Assembly: GCF_000025665.1 (NCBI RefSeq)
Contig: NC_013926.1
Location: 660,001 to 692,000, forward strand
Direction: 5' to 3'
Origin: Aciduliprofundum boonei T469
GTDB taxonomy: Archaea > Thermoplasmatota > Thermoplasmata > Thermoplasmatales > Aciduliprofundaceae
Length of the DNA: 32,000 nucleotides
This document shows positions 2,884 through 27,964 of the stretch, piece by piece. Numbering within the stretch: position 1 is the first letter of the stretch; each line of letters opens with the position of its first letter. The position numbers and the translations under genes were made by a program. The notes under the pieces were generated by a model. It was given only the letters and a program-made list of their open reading frames with translations. It ran no database searches and had not been told where the DNA came from.

Positions 2884-4329
2884 ATGTACAGGCAGGCAAG
2901 GTACGATGAGCCCTTGCTTAAGGAGATGCACAGCGAGAATGATGTAGAGATAGAAATAGAAGTGCCCGAGGTATTGAAGAGAGAGAAATTGGAGCTGCCC
3001 AACATACCAGAATATGAGGTGGTTCGTCATTATACCAGGCTCTCGCAGATGAATTATGGGGTGGATATCAACACATACCCTCTGGGATCCTGCACGATGA
3101 AATACAATCCCAAGCTCAACGAGGAGATTGCAAGAATGTTCTTCTATCTTCACCCTTATCAGGATGAGAGTACGGTGCAGGGAGCATTGCAGATCATGTA
3201 CGAATTGCAAGAGATGCTGAAAGAAATAACTGATATGGATGCATTTACGCTGCAGCCTGCAGCAGGGGCACATGGAGAATTCACAGGTATGCTTCTTGTT
3301 AGAGCCTATCATGAATTTAGGGGAGAATTAGAGAAGAGGCGCAATGTTCTCGTGCCAGACTCTGCGCATGGTACAAATCCTGCCAGTGCGGCCATGGCCG
3401 GGTTTAATGTGATCGAGATACCATCTAACAAAGAAGGTATGGTTGATTTAGAAGCTTTAGAAGCTGCAACGGATGAATCAACAGCTGCATTCATGATAAC
3501 AAATCCAAACACTCTGGGCATATTTGAGGAGGATATATTGGAAATTGCCAAGATCATGCACAAGAACGGTGCGTTGCTCTACTACGATGGTGCAAATCTC
3601 AATGCCATCATGGGCATAACCTCACCGGGCATAATGGGATTTGATATAGTGCATCTGAATCTGCACAAGACCTTCTCCACGCCCCACGGTGGTGGTGGAC
3701 CTGGCTCCGGGCCTGTTGGCGTTCGTGGTGAGCTTGTGGATTTCTTACCCGTTCCTATTGTGAATTACGATGGAGAGAAGTATTTCTTAGATTACAATGT
3801 AAGGCATACCATAGGCAAAGTGCGTAGCTTCTATGGCAATTTTGGAGTTCTGGTAAAAGCCTGGGCCTACATAAAGCGCTTGGGAGGAGAAGGATTGAGA
3901 GATGCGGCTATACGCGCTGTGGTCAATTCAAATTATTTAAAGGAGAGAATAAAAGAGCACTACGAGCTTCCCTACAAGGATCTGAGAAAGCATGAATTTG
4001 TGGTCAGGCCCAAGAATGCCACTGCCCTAGATGTGGCAAAGAGGTTGCTGGACTTCGGCGTGCACGCGCCAACTGTGTATTTTCCACTCATAGTGCACGA
4101 AGCCCTGATGATCGAGCCCACAGAAACGGAGACGAAGGAGAATCTTGATAGATTTGCAGAGATAATGATAAGAATTGCAAAAGAGGCGGATGAGGAGTCA
4201 GAGCTTTTGCACGAGGCACCGCATAACACGTCCATTGGAAGAGTGGATGATATCCTCGCCAACAGAAAACCGGTACTAACTTGGAAAATGTACAGGGAGA
4301 TGAAAGAAAGGGGAGAAATAGACTACTGA
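2884..4329 (+). CDS. gcvPB: glycine dehydrogenase (decarboxylating) subunit 2 (PLP-binding)
   Basis: 481 aa. Contains [22 protein letters not shown] and the [21 protein letters not shown]-lysine block characteristic of the P-protein beta subunit. Confidence 0.95.
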
Positions 4330-4874
4330 GGAGAATAGGGCTTGTAGAGCTTATGCTCTATTCCCAAGGAATCCAAAATTTTTCCTACAATGTAATTCAC
4401 AACATCATCTATTTTTTTAGGTTTCAAATAGAATGCAGGTACAGGAGGTAGAATATCGACACCTATTTTTGAGAGCTTGAGCATGTTTTCAAGGATAATT
4501 GGGCTAAGAGGCGTTTCTCTTGGTACCAAAATTACCTTTCTTCTCTCTTTTAAAGCCACGGAGGCAACGCGAGTTATGAGATTATCCGCTATGCCGCAGG
4601 CTATTTTTGATAATGTACTCGTAGAGCATGGTACTATTACCAAAGAATCAAACCTCGTAGTTCCAGAGGCAATATCCGCATCCATTTCGTTGTTATTGTA
4701 AATTCTTGAGGATAAATTTATTAGGTCCTCCTCTTTGTAATCTGTCTCGTATTTTATAATCTTCTTAGCGTTTTCGGAGAGTATTAAGGAGACATCATGA
4801 GCTTTTAAACTTTCCAGAAGTTTTATTCCCAGTATGCTGCCTGATGCACCTGTTATACCAACGATTATTTTCAT
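4323..4874 (-). CDS. ubiX: flavin prenyltransferase UbiX
   Basis: Taking the ATG at 4874 as start gives [21 protein letters not shown]..., the canonical flavoprotein N-terminus. [21 protein letters not shown] and LVPRETPLS blocks match the UbiX/Pad1 family. The tracked start at 5060 adds 62 unsupported residues and collides with the divergent nhaP start. Confidence 0.88.
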
Positions 4875-4953
4875 GATGGAACAAAATGATAAGAAACTTA
4901 AATAATATTCGGTTGAGATATGTATATATACGAGCAATATATCTCCCCCTTCG
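4875..4953. promoter_or_regulatory. divergent promoter region between ubiX and nhaP
   Basis: A 79-nt AT-rich spacer with TATA-like tracts (cttaaataatatt) and a perfect palindrome, GTATATATAC, at about 4921..4931. Confidence 0.4.
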
Positions 4954-6249
4954 GTGATATCATTGGATTTCAACATATCTTTGGTACTGCATTCCGAGGT
5001 GGATGTAGTCGCATATGCTGTTCTCATAGTCCTTTTATTTGGCATAATATCACTTCTCATTAGTAGAAGAACTAAGATATCCTACATACCCATACTCATT
5101 CTTTTTGGCATTCTAATAGGGCCCGTGTTGGGCATGATTAATAGAAAATTAGCTTTGAGTTTGTTTGAATATGTAAGAGTTTTTGGTCTTTTTATGATTC
5201 TATTTGCTGAGGGGTATCATTTGTGGAGGTCTCTTTTAGTTAAAAACTTTACCACGATAGCCCTTCTCGATACCATAGGTCTTTTGATAACTGCCCTCTT
5301 AGCAGGTTTTATTTTCTCGCTAATCTTCCATGTACCATTCACAGTTGGATTCCTCTTTGGTGCTATAGTGTCTGCAACTGATCCCGCTACTCTTATACCC
5401 CTATTCAAACAGCACAAGGTTGATAGAAACATAGAAACGGTTATAGTTACAGAATCTATCTTTAATGATCCTCTGGGTGTGGTGCTTACATCTCTTGCTC
5501 TTGCTTTCGTCATGCCCCAAGCACCCAGTGCACAGCCAGTAGAAAAATTAGCAGAGTATGTAACTCTCTATCCCGCTGCGATTTTGTATTTTCTTTATCA
5601 GGTGGGAATGTCCATAGTGATAGGTGCAATTGTTGCTTGGATAGGATATGAGGGAATAAAGAAGATAAAACTCAGAAAATCTCCATATGTGGAAATCTTA
5701 GCAATAACTCTGGCTTTTGGTGGATTTGTGTTAGGAGAGGTTGTGGGTGCCTCGGGATTTCTGGTTGCAACAGTGATAGGAATCTTGCTGGGTAATTATG
5801 ATGATTTCTTCCATGATAACTCCCCCGAAGTCCAGCATGCTGTGAGGTGGCACATGCATTTTAACGATGTTCTTGCCATGCTTGGAACTATATTCATATT
5901 CATACTTTTAGGAGCCAGTTTGAATCTCTCTATGCTGGATCCACTGATGATTTTGTACGGTTCAATAATAGCCCTTTTCATAGTATTCGTTGCCAGGCCT
6001 GTGGCGGCCTTGGTCATACTGCCTAAATGGAAATTCAAGAAATACCTATTCATCTCTTTAGAAGGGCCTCGTGGAGTTGTACCTTCGGCCTTGGCCAGCA
6101 TGCCTCTTATGCTTGGAATAGCGTATAATAATACTCAGATGATACACTGGGGTGAGCTCATTTTAAGCACTACGATTATAACGGTGCTGTTGACAGTGAT
6201 AATAGAGACCCTGTGGGTTCCCTATTTGAAAAAGAAGCTTCTTAGTTAA
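4954..6249 (+). CDS. nhaP: Na+/H+ (cation:proton) antiporter, CPA1 NhaP type
   Basis: Polytopic membrane protein. ATDPATLIPLF and ESIFNDPLGVV (the ND motif of electroneutral CPA1 exchangers) are present. The 4954 start is a GTG and is uncertain by a few codons. Confidence 0.85.
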   Translation: MISLDFNISLVLHSEVDVVAYAVLIVLLFGIISLLISRRTKISYIPILILFGILIGPVLGMINRKLALSLFEYVRVFGLFMILFAEGYHLWRSLLVKNFTTIALLDTIGLLITALLAGFIFSLIFHVPFTVGFLFGAIVSATDPATLIPLFKQHKVDRNIETVIVTESIFNDPLGVVLTSLALAFVMPQAPSAQPVEKLAEYVTLYPAAILYFLYQVGMSIVIGAIVAWIGYEGIKKIKLRKSPYVEILAITLAFGGFVLGEVVGASGFLVATVIGILLGNYDDFFHDNSPEVQHAVRWHMHFNDVLAMLGTIFIFILLGASLNLSMLDPLMILYGSIIALFIVFVARPVAALVILPKWKFKKYLFISLEGPRGVVPSALASMPLMLGIAYNNTQMIHWGELILSTTIITVLLTVIIETLWVPYLKKKLLS

Positions 6250-9395: not shown

Positions 9396-9409
9396 TTTTT
9401 ATTTTTAAG
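9396..9409 (+). terminator. oligo-T tracts after the flippase gene
   Basis: atttttatttttaag (two T5 runs) begins directly after the stop at 9392..9394, at the convergent junction with the next gene. Confidence 0.3.
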
Positions 9410-10829
9410 AAATTAGCCCTATTTTTAATAAGCTTTTCTCTTCCCTATTTTTCCTCACATCTATAACCTGACCTGTTATTTCTGTGGTGATAAGCAATAG
9501 CGTTGCATAGGCCACGGTTTCGGGCTTTAAGAGAGTTTCGAGCGGCTCTTTTCCGAAATTTTTGAATCTCATAGGAGTTGCAGTTCTTTCTGGGCATATA
9601 GCATTAACTTTTATACCCAATTCATAAACCTCATCAGCTAAGGCCTGCATTAAGTTTACCACCGCTGCTTTTGTGGAGGAATATATTGAATATCTCTCTC
9701 TTCCCCTAGTATAAGAGCTAGAAGTAAAAAGAACTAAATGCCCTCTTGTAGTTTGAAGATAGGGTATACTTGCCTTCGCCACATTCACTGTGCCATAATA
9801 ATTTGTATCAATTATCTGGTGTATATCTGTTAAATTCATATTCTTTAAAAAGCCCATTATAAGAATCCCTGCCGTATTTATGACAGCATCAATTTTTCCA
9901 TATTTTTCATTAACCTTTTCAAGAGCGGATACCACATTCTCAAAATTAGTTATATCAACTCCATTTTTTCTTGAAAATGAATATGGTACCCCACCATATT
10001 TCTTTACGAGGGTGTATATCTTTTTACCAATACCACTGCTCCCACCAAAGATTATAATAGTTTTCCCTTTTAATTTTTCAAGGGAATGAAGAATATAATT
10101 CTTGTCAGAAAATGATAATATCGTTCTTTTTAGCTGAAATAGCCTATCTGCCAGATATATCTCACTCTGATAAGTGATTTTTATATTGTTGATATCCCCT
10201 GCTACAGTCTTAACAGGACCTAATCTGTACTCTAGAAAGAGCGAGCAATCATCTGTAAAGTTATTTTTTCCATCTTTTTCTGCTAATTGATGGGCTTTTA
10301 ATATAGAATCTCTCCAAAATCCTTGAGGTGTTTGCCCTCTTCTAAGTTTACTTCTATCAGGTATATCCTCAATTTCATCATTTTCTCTTATTCTTACTAT
10401 AGTATCTGCTGTCGGAATTACAGTATCTACTGCAGGATATACTTTCAAAGCATCAATAATTCTTACTATTATCTCTTTGGTTACAAAAGGTCGTACAGCA
10501 TCATGGATAAGAACGTAACGGACATTTTCATCTGTAGCATATACACCTATCCTGGAACTTTCTTGTCTTGTGTTACCTCCATAAAGAACTTTTTTCACTT
10601 TTTTGTAATCATTTTTCTTAAATAACTCTAAAAAGTACTCATACCATTCAGGATTGACTACTACAAATATTTCATCCACAAATGCACAATGCTCAAATAC
10701 ATCTAGGGTATGCTCAATTATTGTTTTTCCTGCCACCTTCATAAATTGCTTTGGTTTTTCCATTCCAAACCTTATCCCAGATCCACCTGCTAGGATTATA
10801 GCAACTGTTTTTTCTAATTTCGGAGACAT
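9405..10829 (-). CDS. bifunctional IspD/TarI-like cytidylyltransferase + short-chain dehydrogenase (Bcs1-like CDP-ribitol synthase)
   Basis: The N-terminal half (AIILAGGSGIRFGMEKPKQF, IHDAVRPF, RGQTPQGF) matches the IspD/TarI family. The C-terminal half (IIIFGGSSGIGK, NTAG, YSSTKAA) is a classical SDR with a YxxxK motif. The domain order and the 474-aa length match Haemophilus Bcs1. A GGTGA Shine-Dalgarno-like site lies just upstream of the ATG. Confidence 0.8.
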   Translation of the reverse strand: MSPKLEKTVAIILAGGSGIRFGMEKPKQFMKVAGKTIIEHTLDVFEHCAFVDEIFVVVNPEWYEYFLELFKKNDYKKVKKVLYGGNTRQESSRIGVYATDENVRYVLIHDAVRPFVTKEIIVRIIDALKVYPAVDTVIPTADTIVRIRENDEIEDIPDRSKLRRGQTPQGFWRDSILKAHQLAEKDGKNNFTDDCSLFLEYRLGPVKTVAGDINNIKITYQSEIYLADRLFQLKRTILSFSDKNYILHSLEKLKGKTIIIFGGSSGIGKKIYTLVKKYGGVPYSFSRKNGVDITNFENVVSALEKVNEKYGKIDAVINTAGILIMGFLKNMNLTDIHQIIDTNYYGTVNVAKASIPYLQTTRGHLVLFTSSSYTRGRERYSIYSSTKAAVVNLMQALADEVYELGIKVNAICPERTATPMRFKNFGKEPLETLLKPETVAYATLLLITTEITGQVIDVRKNREEKSLLKIGLIS

Positions 10830-10870
10830 AAATTCTCACCTACTGATTGATAAAAATATAGGTATATTTA

Positions 10871-10966
10871 ATTTTTTAGAATGTTCTCAACAATTTCTAT
10901 AACTCTATCCGATGCCCTACCATCCGGATTACCGTGGATAAAATGCAAGCATTCTTTGTAAATGTA
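10871..10966 (-). pseudogene. orphan C-terminal gene fragment (glycan-enzyme-like tail, no start codon)
   Basis: My hand translation of the minus strand gives YIYKECLHFIHGNPDGRASDRVIEIVENILKN followed by a stop at 10868..10870. The frame has no ATG and closes at a stop at 11024..11026. The NP-DG-x-AS-x-R-[IV] tail resembles C-termini of UDP-GlcNAc 2-epimerases and TagF-family enzymes. Confidence 0.35.
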
Positions 10967-10986
10967 GTAGGAAATCCTAGTGAGTA

Positions 10987-12180
10987 TTATCCCCAGAAAT
11001 ATTTTATAATTCTCTCCCTCGCTTTATTATCTTTATAAGTAAACATTACATCTCTCAGCCAAAGTCTCTCTTTTTCCCACTTTTTAGGATCATTTATTGC
11101 GCCCTCTAAAGCATTTATGAGGGGTGGGATGTCTTTCACCTTATCTCCTGGTGTCCATAATTCAAAAGGTTCAACTACAAAGCCTCTTTTTTTCCTGTAT
11201 TCTTCTATATCAGGGATATAGTAAATGATAGGTCTGTTTAGAAGCAGATACTCTATCCAGACCGAGGAATAGTCACTAATTAAGATGTCTATGGCTTTGA
11301 AAAACTCGTTAATGGTAAAGTTATTTTTTCGAAGTACATCATTAGAGAGAATTTTTATATTCTCGATACCTCTTTTCTTAAGAAGATCTCTGAAATACAC
11401 TTCATCTTTTCTATGAGGTTTAAAAACAAAAAGAATATCATTTATTTTTAGGAATTTGATAAAATCATCATTTTTTATAATTTTCATTATTTGGTTTTTT
11501 GTATATAAATTATTAAAAGATCTAAAAGTCGGAAGATAGAATAATTTATACTCAAATGTGTCAATAGATACCTTTAATGCATCTTCAAGTAACTTGAGAG
11601 AATACTTTTCGCCTATCTCAAAAATAATATCATCTCTAGGCATACCTGTAATAATTATTTTAAATGGATTAATTTGATAAAATGATGAATGTAGGACTCT
11701 TGTAAAATGGGATGTAGTAACAGCATAATCAAAATACTTCCATGTCTCTGGCATTATTGTAGCGTCCACATAAGCTCCCATCTTCTTTTGAAGCGGAATA
11801 CCATGATCTAAAAGTATTTCTATTTGATTCTTACTTTTCCACCAAGCCCCACCAGTTACGGAGGTCACAAAATATCTTGCTTTTGTTATATATTTTAACA
11901 TATCCTTTGTGTTTTTTCGAAAAATAGCTATACCCCCATCACGCACAACACGTTCGAAGCCATCAGGGGTATCTACGATCCATACACATTGAAAATCTTC
12001 ACATATTTTAGTTTCCCGCATTTTTTGATAAAGATAATATGGGTTGTCATAATAATCATATTGTGAATAGAATAAAATAATATCTTTCTTGGGTATTATA
12101 TTATTCAAGGATTTTATTAATCTCTTGGCAATCTTTGAATCTTTCATAATGTCCCGTATTTCTCTTTTTTTATTAAACAT
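10987..12180 (-). CDS. CDP-polyol:polyol-phosphate transferase (TagF/TarL family, Glyphos_transf)
   Basis: LFYLPTFR (family motif YxPTxR), KPH, ISDYSSVWIEYLLLNRPIIYY (family motif DYSSxxFDYxxLxRPIIFF) and a C-terminal KDNKARERII are present. Confidence 0.8.
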   Translation of the reverse strand: MFNKKREIRDIMKDSKIAKRLIKSLNNIIPKKDIILFYSQYDYYDNPYYLYQKMRETKICEDFQCVWIVDTPDGFERVVRDGGIAIFRKNTKDMLKYITKARYFVTSVTGGAWWKSKNQIEILLDHGIPLQKKMGAYVDATIMPETWKYFDYAVTTSHFTRVLHSSFYQINPFKIIITGMPRDDIIFEIGEKYSLKLLEDALKVSIDTFEYKLFYLPTFRSFNNLYTKNQIMKIIKNDDFIKFLKINDILFVFKPHRKDEVYFRDLLKKRGIENIKILSNDVLRKNNFTINEFFKAIDILISDYSSVWIEYLLLNRPIIYYIPDIEEYRKKRGFVVEPFELWTPGDKVKDIPPLINALEGAINDPKKWEKERLWLRDVMFTYKDNKARERIIKYFWG

Positions 12181-12258: not shown

Positions 12259-13263
12259 ATGGTAGTAGGGATAATATTGGCAGGCGGCTATGGAAAGAGA
12301 TTGAAGCCCATAACAGACTATGTACCGAAGCCCTTGGTGGAGATAAAAGAAGGTTATACAATTTTAGACAAGCAAATATTGGATTTGAAGTATGCAGGTG
12401 TAGATGAGGTATACCTGCTTGTGGGCTATTTGTGGGAGAAGATAAAGGAAAGGTATGGGGATATGTGGAATGGAGTTAAGGTAAATTATTTAGTGGAAGA
12501 TGAGCCTAGAGGGACATTGTGGGCTTTAAGAAATGCATTTTCAAAATTGGAAGAGGATGCGGTTGTCAGAAATGGAGATGTGGTGGCAGATTTCAATATA
12601 AGGGAAATGCTTGAGAGAGCAAGAAAGAATGAGAATGCCTTGCTGACCATAGCAGGTACCAGAATGCGCTCGCCCTACGGCATAATAGATTTCAAGGACG
12701 ATTTAATACTCTCCTTCAGGGAGAAACCCGTATTGGATTACTACATAAATGCAGGGATTTATTACATAAAGAAAGAGACCTATGAGTATTTCAATAGGGA
12801 GTTTACGGATAAGGCTGTGGAGCGCACGGTATTTCCACTTTTAGCAGAGATGAGGAAGGCATACATATTCCGCGAAGACAATGTATTCTGGCAGAGTGTG
12901 GACAGTTTGAAGGATTTGGAGAGGGTAAGAGAGGAGTACAAGAACAGGGAAGACAAGCCGTGGGGGTATGAGAAGATGATAATATTGACTGATAAGTACA
13001 TGGTAAAAGAGCTGTACATAAAGAAGGGATATGAGACCTCAATGCACTATCATCCAAGGAAGGATGAGACAATGCACATAATGTATGGGCAGGGATATAT
13101 AGAAGTGGAGGGCGAGAAAAATGTGGTGCGTAAAAACGATGTTTTCAGGATTCCACCGAATAAGAAGCATAGGATAGTGGCAGTGGAGAATATGCTTCTC
13201 TACGAGTATTCAACTCCTCATCCTGATGACACTGTACGGTTGAAAGATCCTTATGGTCGATAA
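12259..13263 (+). CDS. sugar-1-phosphate nucleotidyltransferase with a C-terminal cupin (ManC-like)
   Basis: MVVGIILAGGYGKRLKPITDYVPKPL is the NTP_transferase signature. The C-terminus (KPWGYE...HYHPRKDETMHIMYGQGYIEVEG...IPPNKKHRI) is a type II PMI-like cupin. I prefer the ATG at 12259, which has a GAGG site, over the tracked TTG at 12235. Confidence 0.8.
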   Translation: MVVGIILAGGYGKRLKPITDYVPKPLVEIKEGYTILDKQILDLKYAGVDEVYLLVGYLWEKIKERYGDMWNGVKVNYLVEDEPRGTLWALRNAFSKLEEDAVVRNGDVVADFNIREMLERARKNENALLTIAGTRMRSPYGIIDFKDDLILSFREKPVLDYYINAGIYYIKKETYEYFNREFTDKAVERTVFPLLAEMRKAYIFREDNVFWQSVDSLKDLERVREEYKNREDKPWGYEKMIILTDKYMVKELYIKKGYETSMHYHPRKDETMHIMYGQGYIEVEGEKNVVRKNDVFRIPPNKKHRIVAVENMLLYEYSTPHPDDTVRLKDPYGR

Positions 13264-14468
13264 TCACTTATGATTCTTTTAATGAAATTTACCATGTTTT
13301 TTGAAACGTTTTTAACACTATTCTCTCTCATTATATTAAGTGCTGTGTTTAATAGAGCGTTATATTTCGGGTAATTATTTAAAACACACATTGTACAGGA
13401 TGTAATTACACTTTGAAGACTATCTTTTGTATATCTTATCACATTTTCTCTAAAGTTGTAATGTGGGGCATAGCTCTTAGGTATTAATATAGGAACTCCA
13501 TAAGAAATCGCATCGTTTATTGCTCCTGAAATTTTATATGTGCCATACACAGCATTGGCAGAATCTGGCAAGATTACAAAGTGAGCTTTTAGAAGCCATT
13601 TTTCGAATATCTTCTCATCTACAAATTCTTTAAAGCGAATTATGATCTCACCATTTGGATCAATTTTCTCAATTCTGTGTTTAATATCATCATCCATCAT
13701 TCTACCCAAAAGAATTAATTTGGCTTTTGTGCGTAAACTTGGATTTTTATCTATAGCATTATGAAATGAATCGATGATATGTAAGTAATCTTTACCATAT
13801 TTTTGTATCACTTTTCCAGGTACTACAAAATAGACAGATTTTTTAGATTTAACTGGTTTTATATCTCTTCCAATTCTTGAAGGTATTACAATATGTGGCT
13901 TATTTTTGAGAGATGGAGGTATTTTAACATATTCTCCAAGGGTGATAAAACCGGATATTCTCTTGGAGACATATAAGTTATATAGTAAATCCAGAAATTT
14001 CCTTTCTTTTATATTTCTTAGGTTAAGACTATGAATAAACCATAGTAGATTCCAGAAATGTGCATTATGAATTATGATAACAAACTTTTTGTTACTCCTC
14101 CATCCCCACTCAAGGAGAGGATGAAAAAAAGGAGGCTCTGTGAGGGTATTTATTATAATTACATCAGGATTTAATTTTTTCACTTCATACTGTAAGTTTT
14201 CTCCCTCTTCTTGTAGCTTTAAAAAAAGTTTAGGATAGTGTAATAGCTTTCTCTTCTCTTTTGACCAAGTATATCTATAAGAATTTTTAATTATTATTAG
14301 GTTCAGTTTATCACTGTATGCAAATTTACTTTTTTCTATAACTCCACGAGATGCTATAACAGTTATGTCATATATATCAGAAAGTGACTCCCCTATTTCA
14401 TACATAGTATTAAGAACATCATGATGCCAAAAAGCTTCTATAATGGCAATCTTTGGTTTTTCACTCAT
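13251..14468 (-). CDS. putative GT-B fold glycosyltransferase (divergent)
   Basis: Two Rossmann-like halves are visible (KIAIIEAF..., NPDVIIINT, IIIHN; then VYFVVPGKV...KAKLILLGR...AHFVILPD...ISGAINDAISYGVPILIP). No canonical EX7E motif is present. An AGGAGG site precedes the ATG. It overlaps the convergent cupin gene by 13 nt. Confidence 0.45.
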   Translation of the reverse strand: MSEKPKIAIIEAFWHHDVLNTMYEIGESLSDIYDITVIASRGVIEKSKFAYSDKLNLIIIKNSYRYTWSKEKRKLLHYPKLFLKLQEEGENLQYEVKKLNPDVIIINTLTEPPFFHPLLEWGWRSNKKFVIIIHNAHFWNLLWFIHSLNLRNIKERKFLDLLYNLYVSKRISGFITLGEYVKIPPSLKNKPHIVIPSRIGRDIKPVKSKKSVYFVVPGKVIQKYGKDYLHIIDSFHNAIDKNPSLRTKAKLILLGRMMDDDIKHRIEKIDPNGEIIIRFKEFVDEKIFEKWLLKAHFVILPDSANAVYGTYKISGAINDAISYGVPILIPKSYAPHYNFRENVIRYTKDSLQSVITSCTMCVLNNYPKYNALLNTALNIMRENSVKNVSKNMVNFIKRIISDYRP

Positions 14469-18206: not shown

Positions 18207-18947
18207 CTACACCAGGACTATTCCATTTTTATCTACATTGTATCTGAATATACCCACCTTCTCGGGATGATTGCGGACCTTCTTCACAATTAGATATTTT
18301 TCGAATCCGTTCTCTATTCTCCTCATCTCCAATTCCAAAATTATATCGACTATTTCCTCTATTCCACTTTGCGAAGTTGTGTCGTAAACATTGTTGAGCA
18401 TAGTGATTAGGGCAACACCACCATAATACTGAGCGTGCGCTTTTATCGTTCTGAGAGCGGATATGACCTTTGTTCTATCATAATTGTTCATAAAGAAATC
18501 AAGGGAATCTATGACTATACGAAACGGAGGCTTTAATTTGGAAATCTCATATGTAACCTTGGTGAGAAAGTTTACCTCCTTTTCCTCCTTTTTTCTTGCT
18601 GGCTGAAATAACTCGTTTATGGGTATGCCCTCTTCCCTGTACCTGCTTATTATGAGTTCCTTCTCCAGAACCTTCTGGTAGTATTCAACACCTATATTCA
18701 CAATTTTTATATTGGTATCCCATCCAAAATCCCTCATTGTTGCTATTATATCCTCATCTCTCTCAATAGTGGTAAAGTATATCACATTCTCCTTGCCCAC
18801 ACCTGCAGCTGCAAATTGCTTGGCAAAGAGCTCAGTTCCAGAGCCTGGAGAACCGTAAAGAAGAATTGTGTAGCCCTTTGGAATTCCGTTCATAAGGGCC
18901 TTGTTGAGAGTTTCTATGCCCAGAGTTGTGGTTTCATATGCACTCAT
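18207..18947 (-). CDS. KaiC/RecA-superfamily protein with a degenerate Walker A (predicted pseudo-ATPase)
   Basis: It has the KaiC-like layout (GIETLNKALMNGIPKGYTILLYG...), but the P-loop reads GSPGSGTE (18831..18854) and lacks the invariant Lys. A Walker B-like RIVIDSLD is retained. The family MRGxxH motif is replaced by VRNHPE. Confidence 0.75.
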   Translation of the reverse strand: MSAYETTTLGIETLNKALMNGIPKGYTILLYGSPGSGTELFAKQFAAAGVGKENVIYFTTIERDEDIIATMRDFGWDTNIKIVNIGVEYYQKVLEKELIISRYREEGIPINELFQPARKKEEKEVNFLTKVTYEISKLKPPFRIVIDSLDFFMNNYDRTKVISALRTIKAHAQYYGGVALITMLNNVYDTTSQSGIEEIVDIILELEMRRIENGFEKYLIVKKVRNHPEKVGIFRYNVDKNGIVLV

Positions 18948-19519
18948 TTCTCCTCCCCTCCTGCATCGTAAGCATCATCGCATACTAAGTTGAGCATATT
19001 TATCATCTCTTCGCTATTCTGCTCTTTCATTGAAATTATAACCATGTAGGATTCCCAGCTGCGCAGAGAAGTCACAAATATGTGCAAAAACTCAGATAGA
19101 ATTTTCAAATCGTTGTGGATTGCCATGGAATTAACAGAATCCAAAACCACTATGGCTTTTTTATCGTTATATTTTCGCAGCAGGTATTCTATTTTTAACA
19201 TTACATTTTCCAGCATCGTGGGACTCTCAATGTACAGGAATTTATCGGACATCTCTCCGGCGTTGGCCATTAAGTGTGATATGGTATCCACGAAAAATAC
19301 GCGGGATGTATCCACGCCCAGAATCTCAAGCAGGCCAACTATGTTCTTAGAAGGAATGGTGGAGGAAATATAGAATACATACAAATCATCCTTGGTTGCA
19401 AATATGTCCACAATGGCACGGAGAGCATCAAAATAGGTGTTTACATCCACATATAGAGCCAAAGAAGAGGCAGGGGGTAATTCGCTTAGTTTATCAACAA
19501 TATTTGATGATACACTCAT
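18944..19519 (-). CDS. truncated KaiC-like domain protein without a P-loop
   Basis: 191 aa. There is no glycine-rich loop where Walker A is expected (SSLALYVDVNTYFDAL). It keeps the strand-DS Walker B-like AIVVLDSVNS and the FVDTIS strand. It is start/stop coupled to both neighbours. Confidence 0.6.
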   Translation of the reverse strand: MSVSSNIVDKLSELPPASSLALYVDVNTYFDALRAIVDIFATKDDLYVFYISSTIPSKNIVGLLEILGVDTSRVFFVDTISHLMANAGEMSDKFLYIESPTMLENVMLKIEYLLRKYNDKKAIVVLDSVNSMAIHNDLKILSEFLHIFVTSLRSWESYMVIISMKEQNSEEMINMLNLVCDDAYDAGGEEK

Positions 19520-20319
19520 TATCGCACCTCCACACTTCCGCCCTTGAGCAATGGGGCCAATAGTATTCCAATGGGGGTCAAGTCCAACACATATTTTGCC
19601 CTGGAGTGGGTGGTACCTCTCATTTTTATTACTTGAATTGTGCGCAGCAAATCTCCTCTCCTCTCTAAATTACCCATCAATATGATTCCGTCAGCAATTG
19701 CCTCTTCCACCCCGTATTGAGAATAGCCGGCTGCAGAGGGTAAGAGTTCAGAAACCAACAAGGTTGTACAGCCCATATCTGATAAGGCCTTTCCAAGTTG
19801 AAGGATGAACTCTCTAATCTGCTCTCTTGAAGTTAATCTATAGCATATGGAAGTTATGCTATCTATAACCAATCTTTTTATCCCGAGTTCTTTCACCATC
19901 TTTATTATCTGCTCTACCAGTATGTTTACATCTTCTAGGGTAAATTCTAATTTTTCAAGCCCCAGCTTCACATAAATCTCCTGCAAATCCACGAATATTA
20001 GCTTTTTCTCCTTAACTAAATTTTTATCAAAAAATTCGTAGGTACTCATATTCTCTATCAATTTCTCAGGAACTTCTGTCACGGATATGTACATTGATCT
20101 CTCACCCATAAGAGCCCCTCTGGTTAAGAATTCTAAGCTCAGAGTGGTTTTTCCCGTACCACAAGAGCCAGTTATTAGAATAGTATTACCCCTAGGAATT
20201 CCCCCATTCAATATATTATCCAATCCCTCGATTCCCGTTTTGCACCTCTCTCTCGTGATTATCATTACAGGATAGTAAATTCTTAACCCTATATCTAATT
20301 TTCTAAGTTGATATTTCAT
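19519..20319 (-). CDS. single-domain KaiC-like ATPase (intact motifs)
   Basis: TGIEGLDNILNGGIPRGNTILITGSCGTGKTTLS carries Walker A (20146..20169). Also present are YISVTEVPE, the Walker B RLVIDSITS and IKMRGTTHS. An internal M19 (MIITRERCKTGIEGLD) is an alternative start. Confidence 0.85.
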   Translation of the reverse strand: MKYQLRKLDIGLRIYYPVMIITRERCKTGIEGLDNILNGGIPRGNTILITGSCGTGKTTLSLEFLTRGALMGERSMYISVTEVPEKLIENMSTYEFFDKNLVKEKKLIFVDLQEIYVKLGLEKLEFTLEDVNILVEQIIKMVKELGIKRLVIDSITSICYRLTSREQIREFILQLGKALSDMGCTTLLVSELLPSAAGYSQYGVEEAIADGIILMGNLERRGDLLRTIQVIKMRGTTHSRAKYVLDLTPIGILLAPLLKGGSVEVR

Positions 20320-23783: not shown

Positions 23784-24398
23784 TTATTTCTTTGCCTTAA
23801 TTCTCTTTATCTCCAGATATATGACTATTCCCAGAGCGAATACAGTTGCAGCAGTGAGGAGATAATACTCGTATGGAACACTTTGGCTTTCCTCAACAGG
23901 GGGCGGGGGATAAACAACGTGATCGAGAAATATGAATTCTTGCTTGGAGATATCGGCTATACCTGCGTAGGCATTTACTGTATAATTGCCTGTTATATTT
24001 TCAAAGAAGGATCTTGGCACAAACCATGTCAATTGTGAAGTGTTTATTGTGTAGTTAACAATATGCGGTTTTTTTCCTAACATAACATACCCGAGGGGCT
24101 TAGAGCCGTTGTTGCTGACTAAGAAGCAGTGTACATAATATGAATCGCTGGTTATATTCACATCGTACTCCTTTATATATCCCTTCTGAGGAGCAACATT
24201 AATCATGCCCCAAACTACTATGGTAATCTTCACCGTTGTTGCATTCTCCCGTCCAAATACCTTTAATATGTCATAATCCACATATTTATCTGTGATTTTT
24301 GGAGAATTAACTTCAAAATTTATGGTGGATGCGGATGCCATTGGAAGAAAAAGTATGAGAAGGGCTCCTAAAATTACATAAATCGCTTTCATTTTCAT
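23784..24398 (-). CDS. secreted, C-terminally membrane-anchored protein rich in N-glycosylation sequons
   Basis: It has a signal peptide (MKMKAIYVILGALLILFLPMASAS), seven N-x-S/T sequons (NAT, NIT, NGS, NYT, NTS, NIT, NYT), a PPPP linker, and a C-terminal TM helix with a basic tail (LLTAATVFALGIVIYLEIKRIKAKK). I recognise no homology. Confidence 0.6.
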   Translation of the reverse strand: MKMKAIYVILGALLILFLPMASASTINFEVNSPKITDKYVDYDILKVFGRENATTVKITIVVWGMINVAPQKGYIKEYDVNITSDSYYVHCFLVSNNGSKPLGYVMLGKKPHIVNYTINTSQLTWFVPRSFFENITGNYTVNAYAGIADISKQEFIFLDHVVYPPPPVEESQSVPYEYYLLTAATVFALGIVIYLEIKRIKAKK

Positions 24399-27093: not shown

Positions 27094-27220
27094 ACAATCA
27101 CCAGAGGATAGGATATCAAAGGATTCTATAAATTATTTTCTTATAGATGCAAATTTGCGAAAAATTTAAATAAATACATGAAATATACATTATTTAGCCA
27201 ATAAAAAGGAGGTATTATGT
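27094..27220. promoter_or_regulatory. divergent promoter/operator region between tldD and the RHH-proteasome-alpha-like gene
   Basis: A 127-nt AT-rich spacer containing a TATA-like aaatttaaataaata; an inverted repeat CTATAA-n9-TTATAG (27126..27146); AAATTT-n5-AAATTT (27151..27167); ATACAT-n5-ATACAT (27174..27190); and a GGAGGT Shine-Dalgarno site at 27208..27213, 7 nt before the ATG at 27221. Confidence 0.5.
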
Positions 27221-27922
27221 ATGAGTGAGATAAGAATAGTGATACCGGATAAGGTAGATAGGTACCTTGATTCTTTAGTGCGCACGGGAATGTTCTCTTC
27301 CAAGGCTGAGCTTTTCAGGGCGGCCCTTATGGAGTACCTTGAAGAAATATCCTCTGTGGCCAAAGACTACGATTCCAAGCTTATGTTCTCTCCTGAAGGT
27401 AGGATATACCAGTTGGAATATGCAAAGGAGGCATCCTTGAGAGGAGTGCCTGTTGTGGCAATTACTTATTCCTCAGGCATACTATTTATGAATCCAGATT
27501 TAAGTGATGGGGACATTGAGTATGCGGATAAAATATATTCAAATGGAGAGATTATAGCAGCCTTCTCAGGCCTTGCTGCTGATGGCTTGTATGTCATGAG
27601 CAAGATAAGGAAAATGAAAGGAGAGATGCGAACTCTCCTTTTTGAGCTCTCCAAAATATTCTGGGAATTTACAACCAAGATGGGCTATAGACCCCTGGGA
27701 GCAAGCGTAATGGTTGGATTTAAAAAAGAGAAAAAAATAGCAGTTTTTGATCCCTCAGGCAGCTATCATTTTGCAAACTACTGGGCAATAGGAGATGGAG
27801 AGAAAGATATTATGGAGATTTTGAGGGGGAAATATAGAAAAGATATGAGCAAAGAAGAAGCTTTGAAACTTGCGCTAAATGCACTTGGTAATCCTCAGAA
27901 GTACAAATTTGAAGCTCTTTGA
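27221..27922 (+). CDS. ribbon-helix-helix (CopG-like) domain fused to a truncated proteasome alpha-subunit-like domain
   Basis: aa 3-42 (EIRIVIPDKVDRYLDSLVRTGMFSSKAELFRAALMEYLEE) follows the RHH strand-helix-helix pattern. aa 49-71 (DYDSKLMFSPEGRIYQLEYAKEA) is the alpha-subunit N-terminal signature. Collinear GLAADG, YRPLGASVMVG, FDPSGSY and AIGDG blocks follow. Confidence 0.75.
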   Translation: MSEIRIVIPDKVDRYLDSLVRTGMFSSKAELFRAALMEYLEEISSVAKDYDSKLMFSPEGRIYQLEYAKEASLRGVPVVAITYSSGILFMNPDLSDGDIEYADKIYSNGEIIAAFSGLAADGLYVMSKIRKMKGEMRTLLFELSKIFWEFTTKMGYRPLGASVMVGFKKEKKIAVFDPSGSYHFANYWAIGDGEKDIMEILRGKYRKDMSKEEALKLALNALGNPQKYKFEAL

Positions 27923-27964
27923 TTTTTCAGAAAATCTTAATACTATCTTTGCACATATTCAAAG

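What the first reader, a model, noticed from the sequence alone, without database searches (positions are those of the whole stretch)
27221..27922. RHH DNA-binding domain fused to a truncated proteasome alpha-subunit-like domain
One uninterrupted ORF joins two modules that I do not know to occur together. The first ~45 aa (IRIVIPDKVDRYLDSLVRTGMFSSKAELFRAALMEYLEE) have the beta-strand/helix/helix pattern of CopG/Arc/MetJ repressors. Directly after comes DYDSKLMFSPEGRIYQLEYAKEA, which is the conserved N-terminal signature of 20S proteasome alpha subunits (YDR..FSPEGRLYQVEYA). Alpha-like blocks then follow in the correct order: GLAADG, YRPLGASVMVG, FDPSGSY, AIGDG. Compared with canonical alpha subunits, the short gate-forming N-terminal tail is replaced by the RHH domain. 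An internal segment of roughly 10 aa appears to be missing. The protein also ends about 35-40 aa early, at ...ALNALGNPQKYKFEAL. The gene is not in the usual archaeal psmA neighbourhood. It is divergently transcribed from a tldD-pmbA protease operon and lies 42 nt upstream of a DUF389 membrane protein. I see two hypotheses. It could be a transcription factor that uses an alpha-ring-like oligomerisation or sensor domain to control proteolysis genes. Alternatively it could be an alternative alpha-type subunit that tethers or caps the 20S particle.
Basis: partly seen in the sequence, partly recalled or inferred. Interest (0 to 1): 0.8.

Follow-up and report, generated by a model that had tools for sequence, protein, structure and literature searches.

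The report
DNA-binding protein built from proteasome alpha subunit
This archaeal gene fuses a small DNA-binding domain to a trimmed, non-catalytic copy of the proteasome alpha subunit; it belongs to a conserved family I found no description of, present in Thermoplasmatota and Asgard archaea, and it carries what looks like its own repressor binding site in its promoter.

Summary
ORF 27221..27922 (+, 233 aa) joins an N-terminal ribbon-helix-helix (RHH) domain to a proteasome alpha-subunit fold. It is not an artefact: 29 reference genomes (GC 35-71%) keep the same fusion. It is not an orthodox PsmA: it scores 91-99 bits against curated cut-offs of 219-287, lacks about 10-12 aa in H1/H1-H2 and the C-terminal S10+H5, and lies outside the exosome operon that holds canonical psmA. 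New here: (1) a longer sister group with the same RHH on a full-length alpha domain occurs in Asgard archaea, and the two groups cluster together (92% bootstrap); (2) family promoters share AT(A/C)C(A/G)T hexamers phased at 11 bp between the TATA box and the start codon (27 of 33 promoters against 0.3% of background windows; no tandem copy elsewhere in about 548 kb); (3) no neighbour is conserved, and TldD/PmbA adjacency is confined to Aciduliprofundum. Best reading: an autoregulated RHH transcription factor that uses an alpha-subunit-derived domain for oligomerisation or partner docking. What the alpha domain does is not resolved. Eight literature searches found no description of the architecture.

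The parts
27221..27922 (+). Complete RHH-alpha fusion gene (233 aa plus stop codon)
   Evidence: ORF list. Full-length homologues in 41 clusters and 29 genomes.
27221..27349 (+). Ribbon-helix-helix domain, aa 1-43: extended strand aa 3-8, helix A aa 10-21, G23 turn, helix B aa 28-43
   Evidence: Pfam RHH_1 scores 23.1-26.3 bits against a cut-off of 20.5. 14 of 28 family members hit RHH_1 and 15 of 28 hit the ParD RHH model. hhalign against the NikR N-terminus gives E=8e-5, in register from residue 1. Helices are as in the model. M1, E3, R5, G23, K28, A29, E30 and R33 are invariant in both the short and long forms.
27350..27367 (+). Short linker, aa 44-49, replacing the free N-terminal gating tail of canonical alpha subunits
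   Evidence: Alignments A1 and A3. The model's pLDDT is lowest here, at a block mean of 53.
27368..27436 (+). Alpha-subunit N-terminal signature and helix H0, aa 50-72 (YD...FSPEGRIYQLEYAKEA)
   Evidence: Pfam Proteasome_A_N scores 36 bits against a cut-off of 27.7. D51, P58, G60, R61, Q64, Y67 and A68 are 100% conserved and E66 is 98% conserved in the short family.
27443..27919 (+). Trimmed proteasome alpha core, aa 75-233: S1-S4, short H1 (aa 119-129), H2, S5-S8, H3, H4, S9; S10 and H5 are missing
   Evidence: Pfam Proteasome covers profile positions 4-171 of 189. Secondary structure from the model, Foldseek hits, alignment with canonical PsmA and the long forms.
27605..27628 (+). Site of the deletion of about 10-12 aa in H1/H1-H2 loop relative to canonical alpha subunits (aa 129-136)
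   Evidence: Gap columns in A1 and A3. The Asgard long forms and canonical PsmA keep this segment.
27157..27172 (+). Putative archaeal promoter: purine-rich BRE-like stretch GCGAAAAA followed by the TATA box TTTAAATA (27165-27172)
   Evidence: Read directly from the sequence. A TATA-like A/T box lies 0-18 nt upstream of the first hexamer in the aligned family promoters. Its function is inferred.
27174..27201 (+). Candidate operator: ATACAT (27174-27179), ATACAT (27185-27190) and a degenerate third unit AGCCAA (27196-27201), with an 11-bp period
   Evidence: It is the only match in the 32-kb window. Hexamers sit at -47, -36 and -25 across the family, are 59-fold enriched, and are spaced only 11 or 22 bp apart. 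All 22 tandem matches lie upstream of family genes, with none elsewhere in 1.1 Mb of strand sequence. 27 of 33 promoters score at least 14 of 18, against 0.3% of background windows.
27208..27213 (+). Shine-Dalgarno-like GGAGGT
   Evidence: Read from the sequence. GGAGG or GGAG is conserved at this position in most family promoters.
27217..27222 (+). Inverted hexamer copy ATGTAT overlapping the start codon (position -4)
   Evidence: A(C/T)GTAT occurs at -4 in 13 of the 30 promoters scored. Related copies occur at -4 in the Asgard loci L044, L045, L048 and L049.
27923..27927 (+). T5 run immediately after the stop codon, a possible archaeal oligo-T terminator
   Evidence: Read from the sequence. 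Its function is inferred. It fits the finding that the gene stands alone in other lineages.

Best explanation
The gene encodes a member of a conserved archaeal family, apparently undescribed, in which a ribbon-helix-helix DNA-binding domain replaces the gating tail of a non-catalytic paralogue of the proteasome alpha subunit. It most likely works as an autoregulated transcription factor. Dimers of the RHH domain would bind two to four AT(A/C)C(A/G)T hexamers phased one helical turn (11 bp) apart. These hexamers lie between the gene's own TATA box and its start codon, so binding there should block TFB/RNA polymerase recruitment and repress the gene. The alpha-derived domain keeps the residues that canonical alpha subunits use for ring contacts and for the HbYX pocket. 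It would supply higher-order assembly, bringing several RHH dimers together for cooperative binding, and possibly a docking surface for a proteasome-related partner. The Thermoplasmatota short form, including this gene, has lost part of H1/H1-H2 and S10+H5, so it is probably not a structural subunit of the 20S particle. What is shown: the architecture, the fold, conservation of the family, conservation of the operator, and the absence of a conserved neighbour. What is inferred: DNA binding, repression, the oligomeric state, and any link to the proteasome.
For: Both domains pass Pfam's curated cut-offs, and the fold matches 20S alpha chains. The fusion is conserved in 41 protein clusters and 29 genomes with GC 35-71%. 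A full-length-alpha sister group occurs in Asgard archaea. The short and long forms group together on the alpha domain alone (92 of 100 bootstraps) and share derived residues: RPLG in place of RP[YF]G, K/R-D in place of GG127-128, and loss of R10 and Y160. The RHH is the best-conserved part of the protein. For the operator: the hexamer occurs at 14.1 per kb upstream against 0.24 per kb in background, at fixed positions -47, -36, -25 and -4, with spacings of only 11 or 22 bp. All 22 tandem matches lie upstream of family genes and none elsewhere. 27 of 33 promoters score at least 14 of 18, against 0.3% of background windows. The same register is seen in Asgard loci. The gene stands alone with variable neighbours. 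It fails the PsmA equivalog cut-offs. Canonical psmA sits in the exosome superoperon in Thermoplasmata. P17, G19, R20, Q23 and Y26 are 100% conserved, E25 is 98% conserved, and K66 is kept in 96% of short forms. PMC3493965 names Pro17 and Gly19 as the invariant HbYX-pocket residues.
Against: There is no direct evidence of DNA binding, and another factor could recognise the conserved hexamers. Sequence support for the RHH is modest: Pfam misses it at E<0.01 in all 8 full-length members scanned, the best solved relative (ParD) reaches only E=0.05, and the monomer model shows no N-terminal strand and has pLDDT 64-81 there. An alpha-type heptamer has an odd number of subunits, which does not fit obligate RHH dimers, and the oligomeric state could not be modelled. 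No second target promoter was found, so a regulon beyond self-regulation is unproven. I could not show that a canonical psmA is present in the same genome.
Confidence: 0.6

Rival explanations
1. It is a proteasome-state sensor. The alpha-like domain joins, or competes for, real proteasome partners: canonical alpha rings, the beta ring, or the HbYX tail of Cdc48/VAT. Free RHH-alpha, and hence transcription of its targets, would then report proteasome assembly or load. That would be an archaeal counterpart of the feedback control exerted by Rpn4 or Nrf1 in eukaryotes.
For: The ring-contact and pocket residues of alpha subunits are kept: D9, P17, G19 and Y26 at 100%, E25 at 98%, and K66 in 96% of short forms. 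Thermoplasmata lack PAN and rely on HbYX-bearing Cdc48 (PMC3493965). The Asgard long forms keep a complete alpha fold. The family has persisted in two phyla, which implies that selection acts on the alpha domain and not only on the RHH.
Against: No operator was found upstream of the canonical psmA loci fetched or anywhere else in the fetched DNA, although whole genomes could not be scanned. K66 is not kept in the Asgard long forms (E in 73%). The short forms have a remodelled H1/H1-H2 and lack S10+H5. No physical interaction has been tested.
Confidence: 0.2
2. It is an alternative alpha-type structural subunit that assembles on beta rings, alone or mixed with PsmA. Its RHH would plug or gate the pore, or tether the 20S particle to DNA.
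For: It has the alpha-subunit fold with H0 and the P17/G19/K66 pocket. The RHH sits exactly where the gating tail would be. The Asgard long forms keep all the alpha elements.
Against: It scores far below the PsmA equivalog cut-offs. The short forms have lost about 10-12 aa of H1/H1-H2, the side that faces the beta ring in canonical alpha subunits (recalled from Löwe 1995 and Groll 1997), and also S10+H5. The 100%-conserved canonical GG127-128, Y/F132, Y160 and R10 are all replaced. The gene is never next to psmB or in the psmA operon. The conserved promoter operator points to a transcription-factor role.
Confidence: 0.12
3. The N-terminal domain is a protein-protein module, like an antitoxin or a dimerisation handle, and not a DNA reader. 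The conserved upstream hexamers would then belong to another regulator or to core promoter and leader function.
For: The closest solved sequence relatives are ParD antitoxins, and only marginally (E=0.05). The sequence signal for the RHH is weak in many members.
Against: No toxin-like partner gene is conserved next to it. E3 and R5 on the predicted DNA-reading strand are invariant in both phyla, alongside a conserved hexamer core. Phased repeats in their own promoter are the classic arrangement for autoregulatory RHH repressors such as Arc, Mnt, CopG and omega (recalled knowledge).
Confidence: 0.06
4. It is an assembly, frameshift or annotation artefact that joins two separate genes.
For: None was found.
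Against: The same uninterrupted fusion occurs in 29 independent genomes with GC 35-71%, in 41 short-form clusters and about 50 long-form clusters from NCBI, JGI, ENA and Logan assemblies.
Confidence: 0.01

Closest known systems
Archaeal 20S proteasome alpha subunit (PsmA; TIGR03633 / NF003075)
   Same: It has the same fold, with Foldseek E about 1e-16, and the Proteasome_A_N signature with helix H0. P17, G19, R20, Q23, E25, Y26, G34, G80, D84, R130 and G166 are conserved, as is K66 in the short forms. It is non-catalytic, like all alpha subunits.
   Different: A 49-aa RHH plus linker replaces the 7-12-aa gating tail. It scores 91-99 bits against cut-offs of 219-287. About 10-12 aa of H1/H1-H2 are deleted, and S10+H5 are missing. 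R10, GG127-128, Y/F132 and Y160 are replaced. It is a stand-alone gene, not part of the exosome superoperon.
NikR (RHH fused to a C-terminal ACT-like tetramerisation and sensor domain)
   Same: The overall logic is the same: an N-terminal RHH followed by a larger C-terminal domain that sets the oligomeric state and can sense a signal. The family's RHH profile aligns in register with the NikR N-terminus (hhalign E=8e-5). NikR is also the weak NCBIfam hit NF002169.
   Different: The C-terminal domain is an Ntn-hydrolase-fold proteasome alpha paralogue, not an ACT-like nickel-binding domain. The operator is a set of phased direct repeats, not two distant half-sites (NikR operator layout recalled, not tested). 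No ligand is known.
Arc / Mnt / CopG / omega-type autoregulatory RHH repressors
   Same: It has an RHH fold and repeated short sites in its own promoter, spaced about one helical turn apart, that overlap the core promoter. Self-repression is the expected outcome.
   Different: Those proteins are 45-80 aa and consist of little more than the RHH. This one carries a 185-aa alpha-subunit domain, is archaeal, and would act on a TATA/TFB-type promoter.
Divergent proteasome homologues with new roles (Anbu, BPH, Connectase)
   Same: They are precedents for proteasome-fold proteins that left the canonical 20S particle (PMC5666114; Connectase and BPH recalled from Fuchs et al.).
   Different: Those derive from the beta/HslV side of the family and are enzymes or enzyme-like rings. 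None is fused to a DNA-binding domain. The Anbu paper's text has no mention of 'ribbon' or 'DNA-binding'.

Membership tests
Ribbon-helix-helix (CopG/Arc/MetJ, Pfam RHH_1) DNA-binding domain | Sequence match to an RHH profile above the curated cut-off | tested here: met
   RHH_1 scores 23.1 bits for the whole protein and 26.3 bits for aa 1-48, against a cut-off of 20.5. 14 of 28 family N-termini hit RHH_1 and 15 of 28 hit the ParD RHH model at E<=1. hhalign against the NikR RHH gives E=8e-5. The signal is weak in many members.
Ribbon-helix-helix (CopG/Arc/MetJ, Pfam RHH_1) DNA-binding domain | Strand-helix-helix topology of about 45 aa, with a glycine turn and a conserved N-cap on helix B | tested here: inconclusive
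   The model has helices at aa 10-21 and 28-43 and an extended N-terminus, but no strand is called in the monomer. That is expected, because the ribbon forms only in a dimer. G23, K28, A29 and E30 are invariant.
Ribbon-helix-helix (CopG/Arc/MetJ, Pfam RHH_1) DNA-binding domain | Obligate dimer through an antiparallel two-stranded ribbon that enters the major groove | not testable with these tools
   Only single-chain prediction was available.
Ribbon-helix-helix (CopG/Arc/MetJ, Pfam RHH_1) DNA-binding domain | Repeated operator sites in the regulated promoter, often the gene's own | tested here: met
   AT(A/C)C(A/G)T units phased at 11 bp lie at -47, -36 and -25, with an inverted copy at -4. 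27 of 33 promoters score at least 14 of 18, against 0.3% of background windows. There are no tandem copies elsewhere in the fetched DNA. Binding itself was not tested.
Canonical archaeal proteasome alpha subunit (PsmA) | Score at or above the curated cut-off of the NCBIfam PsmA models | tested here: not met
   TIGR03633 gives 90.8 bits against 287.35, and NF003075 gives 99.1 bits against 219.
Canonical archaeal proteasome alpha subunit (PsmA) | Alpha-subunit fold with the N-terminal signature and helix H0 | tested here: met
   Pfam Proteasome_A_N and Proteasome both pass their cut-offs. The top Foldseek hits are 20S alpha chains.
Canonical archaeal proteasome alpha subunit (PsmA) | Short free N-terminal gating tail with the YDR motif | tested here: not met
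   49 residues (RHH plus linker) precede the YD. R10 is 100% conserved in canonical PsmA but is S/R/T in the short forms and D in the long forms.
Canonical archaeal proteasome alpha subunit (PsmA) | Complete core including full H1/H1-H2 and C-terminal S10 and H5 | tested here: not met
   There is a gap of about 10-12 aa in H1/H1-H2, and the protein ends after S9. Pfam covers only profile positions 4-171 of 189. The Asgard long forms do meet this feature, covering 3-188 of 189.
Canonical archaeal proteasome alpha subunit (PsmA) | HbYX-pocket residues Pro17, Gly19 and Lys66 | tested here: met
   In the short family P58 and G60 are 100% conserved and K104 is 96% conserved. The role of the pocket residues is from PMC3493965 and, for Lys66, from recalled knowledge.
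Canonical archaeal proteasome alpha subunit (PsmA) | Gene located in the exosome/psmA superoperon | tested here: not met
   Canonical psmA is followed by SBDS, Rrp4, Rrp41, Rrp42 and L37ae in L040 and L047. The fusion gene has variable neighbours and none of these.
Canonical archaeal proteasome alpha subunit (PsmA) | Assembles into heptameric rings on PsmB rings | not testable with these tools
   No multimer modelling or biochemistry was available.
NikR-like two-domain RHH regulators (functional analogy only) | N-terminal RHH plus a C-terminal domain that oligomerises and binds a ligand | tested here: inconclusive
   The domain order matches. The C-terminal domain is unrelated to the ACT-like domain of NikR. 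Oligomerisation and ligand or partner binding were not tested.

The most novel reading that the evidence does not exclude
RHH-alpha is an ancient, dedicated link between the proteasome system and transcription, shared by Asgard archaea and Thermoplasmatota. Its alpha-like domain would form alpha-ring-type assemblies or engage genuine proteasome partners (alpha or beta rings, or HbYX ATPases such as Cdc48/VAT). Its availability for operator binding would then report the state of proteasome assembly or load. This would be the first prokaryotic proteasome feedback regulator, and a ring-forming transcription factor built from a protease subunit.
Probability: 0.2. Interest if true: 0.85.

Novelty: new variant of a known kind. 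Interest (0 to 1): 0.72.

Why it matters
Proteasome alpha subunits are regarded as purely structural gatekeepers of the 20S particle, and I know of none fused to a DNA-binding domain. A conserved family joining an alpha subunit to an RHH would show that this fold has been re-used for gene regulation. The family has a recognisable operator in its own promoter and occurs in two distant archaeal phyla, one of them the Asgard lineage closest to eukaryotes. It also gives a concrete way into a question that is open in archaea: how, or whether, expression of the proteostasis machinery is fed back to transcription. The work is directly doable. The operator is defined to the base, Aciduliprofundum boonei is cultivable, and the protein is small. 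Current databases label these proteins 'peptidase', 'proteasome subunit alpha' or 'hypothetical', and those labels should be corrected.

Tried and rejected
1. I tried to prove that a canonical psmA sits in the same assembly as the fusion. Look-ups of canonical PsmA P0136 and P0114 returned other assemblies (GCA_021818705.1 and GCA_964468585.1). Cluster membership gave almost no accession numbers. tblastn of T. acidophilum PsmA against all fetched loci found canonical copies only in loci fetched for that purpose or in non-family lineages. Co-occurrence therefore remains an inference from the universality of PsmA and from the fusion's failure of the PsmA models.
2. I looked for regulon members. 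Exact tandem operators were found only upstream of family genes, but only about 10 kb on each side of each gene was available. I rejected a metagenome-wide pattern scan because chance matches (roughly 1 per 10^9-10^10 bases per strand) would swamp the signal.
3. Conserved neighbours: none. The one cluster spanning divergent loci is a radical-SAM-like protein (CxxxCxxC motif read from the sequence), present in only 4 loci.
6. I noticed that residue 6 of the RHH strand (T against I/V) tracks G against A at hexamer position 5. I rejected this as evidence because both also track genome GC content.
7. The bacterial-type promoter and terminator scan is uninformative for an archaeon.
8. Eight full-text literature searches for the architecture returned nothing relevant.
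Full report
**1. The observation.**
Pfam finds three domains, all above their curated cut-offs:
- RHH_1 at aa 8-42 (23.1 bits; 26.3 bits when aa 1-48 are scanned alone; cut-off 20.5)
- Proteasome_A_N at aa 50-71 (36.0 bits; cut-off 27.7)
- Proteasome at aa 75-223 (67.6 bits; cut-off 22.4)

The best solved relatives are archaeal 20S alpha chains (3h4p_A, E=1.9e-19). An AlphaFold model built on a 41-sequence family alignment has mean pLDDT 86.5. Its top Foldseek matches in the PDB are all 20S alpha chains, at E about 1e-16 and TM 0.64-0.69. The neighbours are also as described: TldD and PmbA transcribed divergently, and a DUF389 membrane protein 42 nt downstream.

**2. It is not an orthodox PsmA.**
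Against NCBI's curated archaeal alpha-subunit models it scores 90.8 bits (cut-off 287.35) and 99.1 bits (cut-off 219). Alignment with canonical PsmA shows three differences:
- 49 residues (RHH plus a short linker) replace the 7-12-residue gating tail.
- About 10-12 residues are missing from H1 and the H1-H2 loop.
- The chain ends after strand S9, so S10 and helix H5 are absent. The model's secondary structure agrees.

In canonical alpha subunits H1/H2 face the beta ring; this is recalled from Löwe 1995 and Groll 1997. PMC11391049 supports the complementary point that beta-subunit H3/H4 form the beta-beta ring interface.

**3. It is not an artefact, and not a one-off.**
A search of 5.8 billion proteins returned 41 clusters of 231-248 aa (plus one 186-aa fragment). 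They cover 92-100% of the query at 36-91% identity. Sources name them 'peptidase', 'hypothetical protein' or '20S proteasome alpha/beta subunit', from Thermoplasmata, Thermoplasmatota or Euryarchaeota MAGs. Canonical PsmA appears only at E about 1e-14.

A scan of one genome per GTDB species found 29 loci with the complete fusion. The nearest, at 89-90% identity, are Aciduliprofundum MAGs, so the window is from an Aciduliprofundum (DHVE2) archaeon. All 29 proteins begin M-x-E-[ILV]-R, and their genomes range from 35% to 71% GC. That rules out a local assembly or frameshift error.

**4. A sister group in Asgard archaea.**
An exhaustive profile search of 1.84 billion cluster representatives found 64 proteins at E<=1e-30. 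About 25-30 of the listed matches span the profile from its first position, so they carry the RHH plus the alpha domain. Several are 276-301 aa long. In these, the same RHH precedes a complete alpha domain with H1-H2, S10 and H5 intact. Pfam covers profile positions 3-188 of 189 in P0178.

Searching with these long forms gave about 50 clusters. Where sources name them, they are 'Candidatus Hodarchaeota' and 'Promethearchaeota'. One locus lies next to Arf-like GTPase and arrestin genes.

On the alpha domain alone, the short and long RHH forms group together against canonical alpha subunits in 92 of 100 bootstrap NJ trees. This is a distance tree with long branches, so it needs caution.

The two forms share derived residues that canonical PsmA lacks:

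| Position (T. acidophilum numbering) | Canonical PsmA | RHH-alpha forms |
|---|---|---|
| RP[YF]G motif, residue 132 | Y/F 100% | L 96-100% (RPLG) |
| G127-G128 | G 100% | mostly K/R-D |
| R10 | R 100% | lost |
| Y160 | Y 100% | lost |

Both keep P17, G19, R20, Q23, E25, Y26, G34, G80, D84 and R130 at 94-100%. Lys66, the HbYX-pocket lysine, is K in 96% of short forms but E in 73% of long forms. The fusion therefore arose once, and the trimming is a later Thermoplasmatota feature.

**5. The RHH assignment.**
The N-terminal 47 residues are the best-conserved part of the protein. M1, E3, R5, G23, K28, A29, E30 and R33 are invariant in both phyla. Sequence support from public models is only moderate:
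- 14 of 28 N-termini hit RHH_1 and 15 of 28 hit the ParD RHH model at E<=1, and the leading families are all RHH types.
- The family profile aligns in register with the NikR RHH (hhalign E=8e-5) but poorly with CopG.
- The best solved relative is ParD, at E=0.05.
- Pfam misses the domain at E<0.01 in all eight full-length members scanned. This explains why no database annotates the architecture.

**6. A conserved operator.**
Aligning the 160 nt upstream of the family genes showed short repeats between a TATA-like box and the Shine-Dalgarno sequence.
- ATAC(A/G)T occurs at 14.1 per kb in the 80 nt upstream, against 0.24 per kb elsewhere in the same loci. It sits at fixed positions -47, -36 and -25. 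Every spacing between copies is 11 or 22 bp. An inverted copy A(C/T)GTAT overlaps the start codon at -4 in 13 of 30 promoters.
- Generalised to AT(A/C)C(A/G)T, all 22 tandem matches (two units 11 bp apart) lie within 90 nt upstream of a family gene. None lies elsewhere in 1.1 Mb of strand sequence.
- A three-unit model scores at least 14 of 18 in 27 of 33 promoters, against 0.3% of 90-nt background windows. The mean is 15.3 against 10.2 +/- 1.1.
- Four Hodarchaeota-type loci have ATCC(G/A)T-type hexamers at -36 and -25 and an inverted copy at -4, the same register. Two divergent long-form loci have ATCCAT-type units followed by two ATGGAT inverted copies 11 bp apart.

In the window the elements are as follows:

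| Element | Coordinates |
|---|---|
| TATA box TTTAAATA | 27165-27172 |
| ATACAT | 27174-27179 |
| ATACAT | 27185-27190 |
| Degenerate unit AGCCAA | 27196-27201 |
| GGAGGT | 27208-27213 |
| Inverted ATGTAT | 27217-27222 |

Sites between the TATA box and the expected transcription start are where archaeal repressors typically block polymerase recruitment (recalled knowledge). Phased repeats in their own promoter are the classic arrangement of autoregulatory RHH proteins. This is strong comparative evidence for DNA binding and self-regulation, but it is not a binding experiment.

**7. Genomic context.**
The gene stands alone.
- In three distant Thermoplasmatota members and three Asgard members the neighbours all differ.
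- All-against-all clustering of ORFs within 4 kb of the gene in 33 loci found no cluster in more than 5 loci, all of them close relatives.
- TldD/PmbA adjacency occurs only in the window and the two Aciduliprofundum MAGs. DUF389 occurs only in the window and L007.
- Canonical psmA in Thermoplasmata sits in the exosome superoperon, followed by SBDS, Rrp4, Rrp41, Rrp42 and L37ae.
- The rest of the window holds ordinary housekeeping genes and no proteasome or Cdc48 genes.

**8. Interpretation.**
The best-supported reading is an autoregulated RHH transcription factor whose effector or oligomerisation domain is a proteasome alpha paralogue.

The alpha domain's retained H0 and YD/P17/G19/Y26 cluster, and K66 in the short forms, suggest that alpha-type lateral contacts or an HbYX-type pocket still matter. 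PMC3493965 states that Pro17 and Gly19 are the invariant pocket residues and that Thermoplasmata lack PAN and rely on Cdc48.

Whether the protein forms rings, how an odd-numbered ring would fit obligate RHH dimers, and whether it touches real proteasome components could not be tested here. The more exciting variant, a proteasome-state sensor feeding back on transcription, is not excluded. It has no direct support either: no operator was seen outside the family's own promoters, in the limited DNA available.

**9. Novelty.**
Eight full-text searches found no description of an RHH-proteasome-alpha fusion. The broad census of proteasome homologues in the Anbu paper does not mention one. Source names never mention an RHH. 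I rate it a new variant of known kinds (an RHH regulator; a proteasome alpha paralogue) with an unprecedented combination, a defined candidate operator, and an unexpected Asgard-Thermoplasmatota distribution.

**10. Limits.**
- Co-occurrence with a canonical psmA in the same genome was not shown.
- Regulon discovery needs complete genomes.
The PsmA one proved 99% identical to the PDB chain.

Noticed in passing
P0183 (207 aa; not in the window): This is a short alpha-like protein with the family's RPLA/RPLG-type motif, the H1-H2 deletion and the short C-terminal end, but with no RHH; it starts about 10 residues before the YD motif. It could be a truncated gene call or a real RHH-less derivative.
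   Followed up: no
window 27217-27225: An out-of-frame ATG at 27217 opens a three-codon mini-ORF (ATG TAT GAG TGA) overlapping the real start at 27221. The ATGTATG/ACGTATG string is conserved in many family members, so it may be an operator unit, a translation-start context, or both.
   Followed up: partly
window 23784-24398 (-): A 204-aa ORF with no Pfam match has a hydrophobic N-terminus and a hydrophobic C-terminal segment followed by basic residues, which suggests a secreted or anchored protein. It overlaps the end of pmbA by 4 nt, so it may be co-transcribed with tldD-pmbA.
   Followed up: no
window 9405-12180 (-): An IspD-like cytidylyltransferase is fused to a short-chain dehydrogenase (474 aa), next to a CDP-glycerol:poly(glycerophosphate) glycerophosphotransferase-family gene. 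This looks like a teichoic-acid-type (TarI/TarJ plus TagF-like) polyol-phosphate polymer cluster in an archaeon.
   Followed up: no
window 18207-20319 (-): Two KaiC-family ATPase genes flank a DUF7090 gene and lie next to a DUF763 gene, with overlapping or abutting stop and start codons, so they look like one operon.
   Followed up: no
window 4323-5060 (-) and 4954-6249 (+): The flavoprotein ORF and the Na+/H+ exchanger ORF overlap head-to-head by about 100 nt as listed. The GTG start of the exchanger, or the flavoprotein start, is probably called too far upstream: the Flavoprotein match begins only at aa 63.
   Followed up: no
window 13251-14468 (-): A 405-aa ORF has no Pfam match at E<=1e-5. 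It lies between a sugar-nucleotidyltransferase/cupin gene and the transaldolase-transketolase genes.
   Followed up: no
L040 4001-8720 and L047 3001-6708: In Thermoplasmata MAGs canonical psmA is followed by SBDS, Rrp4, Rrp41, Rrp42, L37ae and, in L040, Pcc1 and prefoldin beta: the classic exosome superoperon. In L040 an FtsZ gene lies about 440 nt upstream.
   Followed up: partly
L046 9006-11535: Immediately downstream of a divergent long-form RHH-alpha gene lie an Arf/Roc-type small GTPase fusion (471 aa) and an arrestin-domain protein. Both are eukaryote-signature proteins typical of Asgard genomes.
   Followed up: no
L045 13142-15538 and 1-749; L048 2416-3507: In two Asgard loci other protease genes lie within a few kb of the RHH-alpha gene: a LonB/LonC-type gene and M42/TET peptidase genes. 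Like TldD/PmbA in Aciduliprofundum, this may be coincidence, and no single protease family recurs.
   Followed up: no
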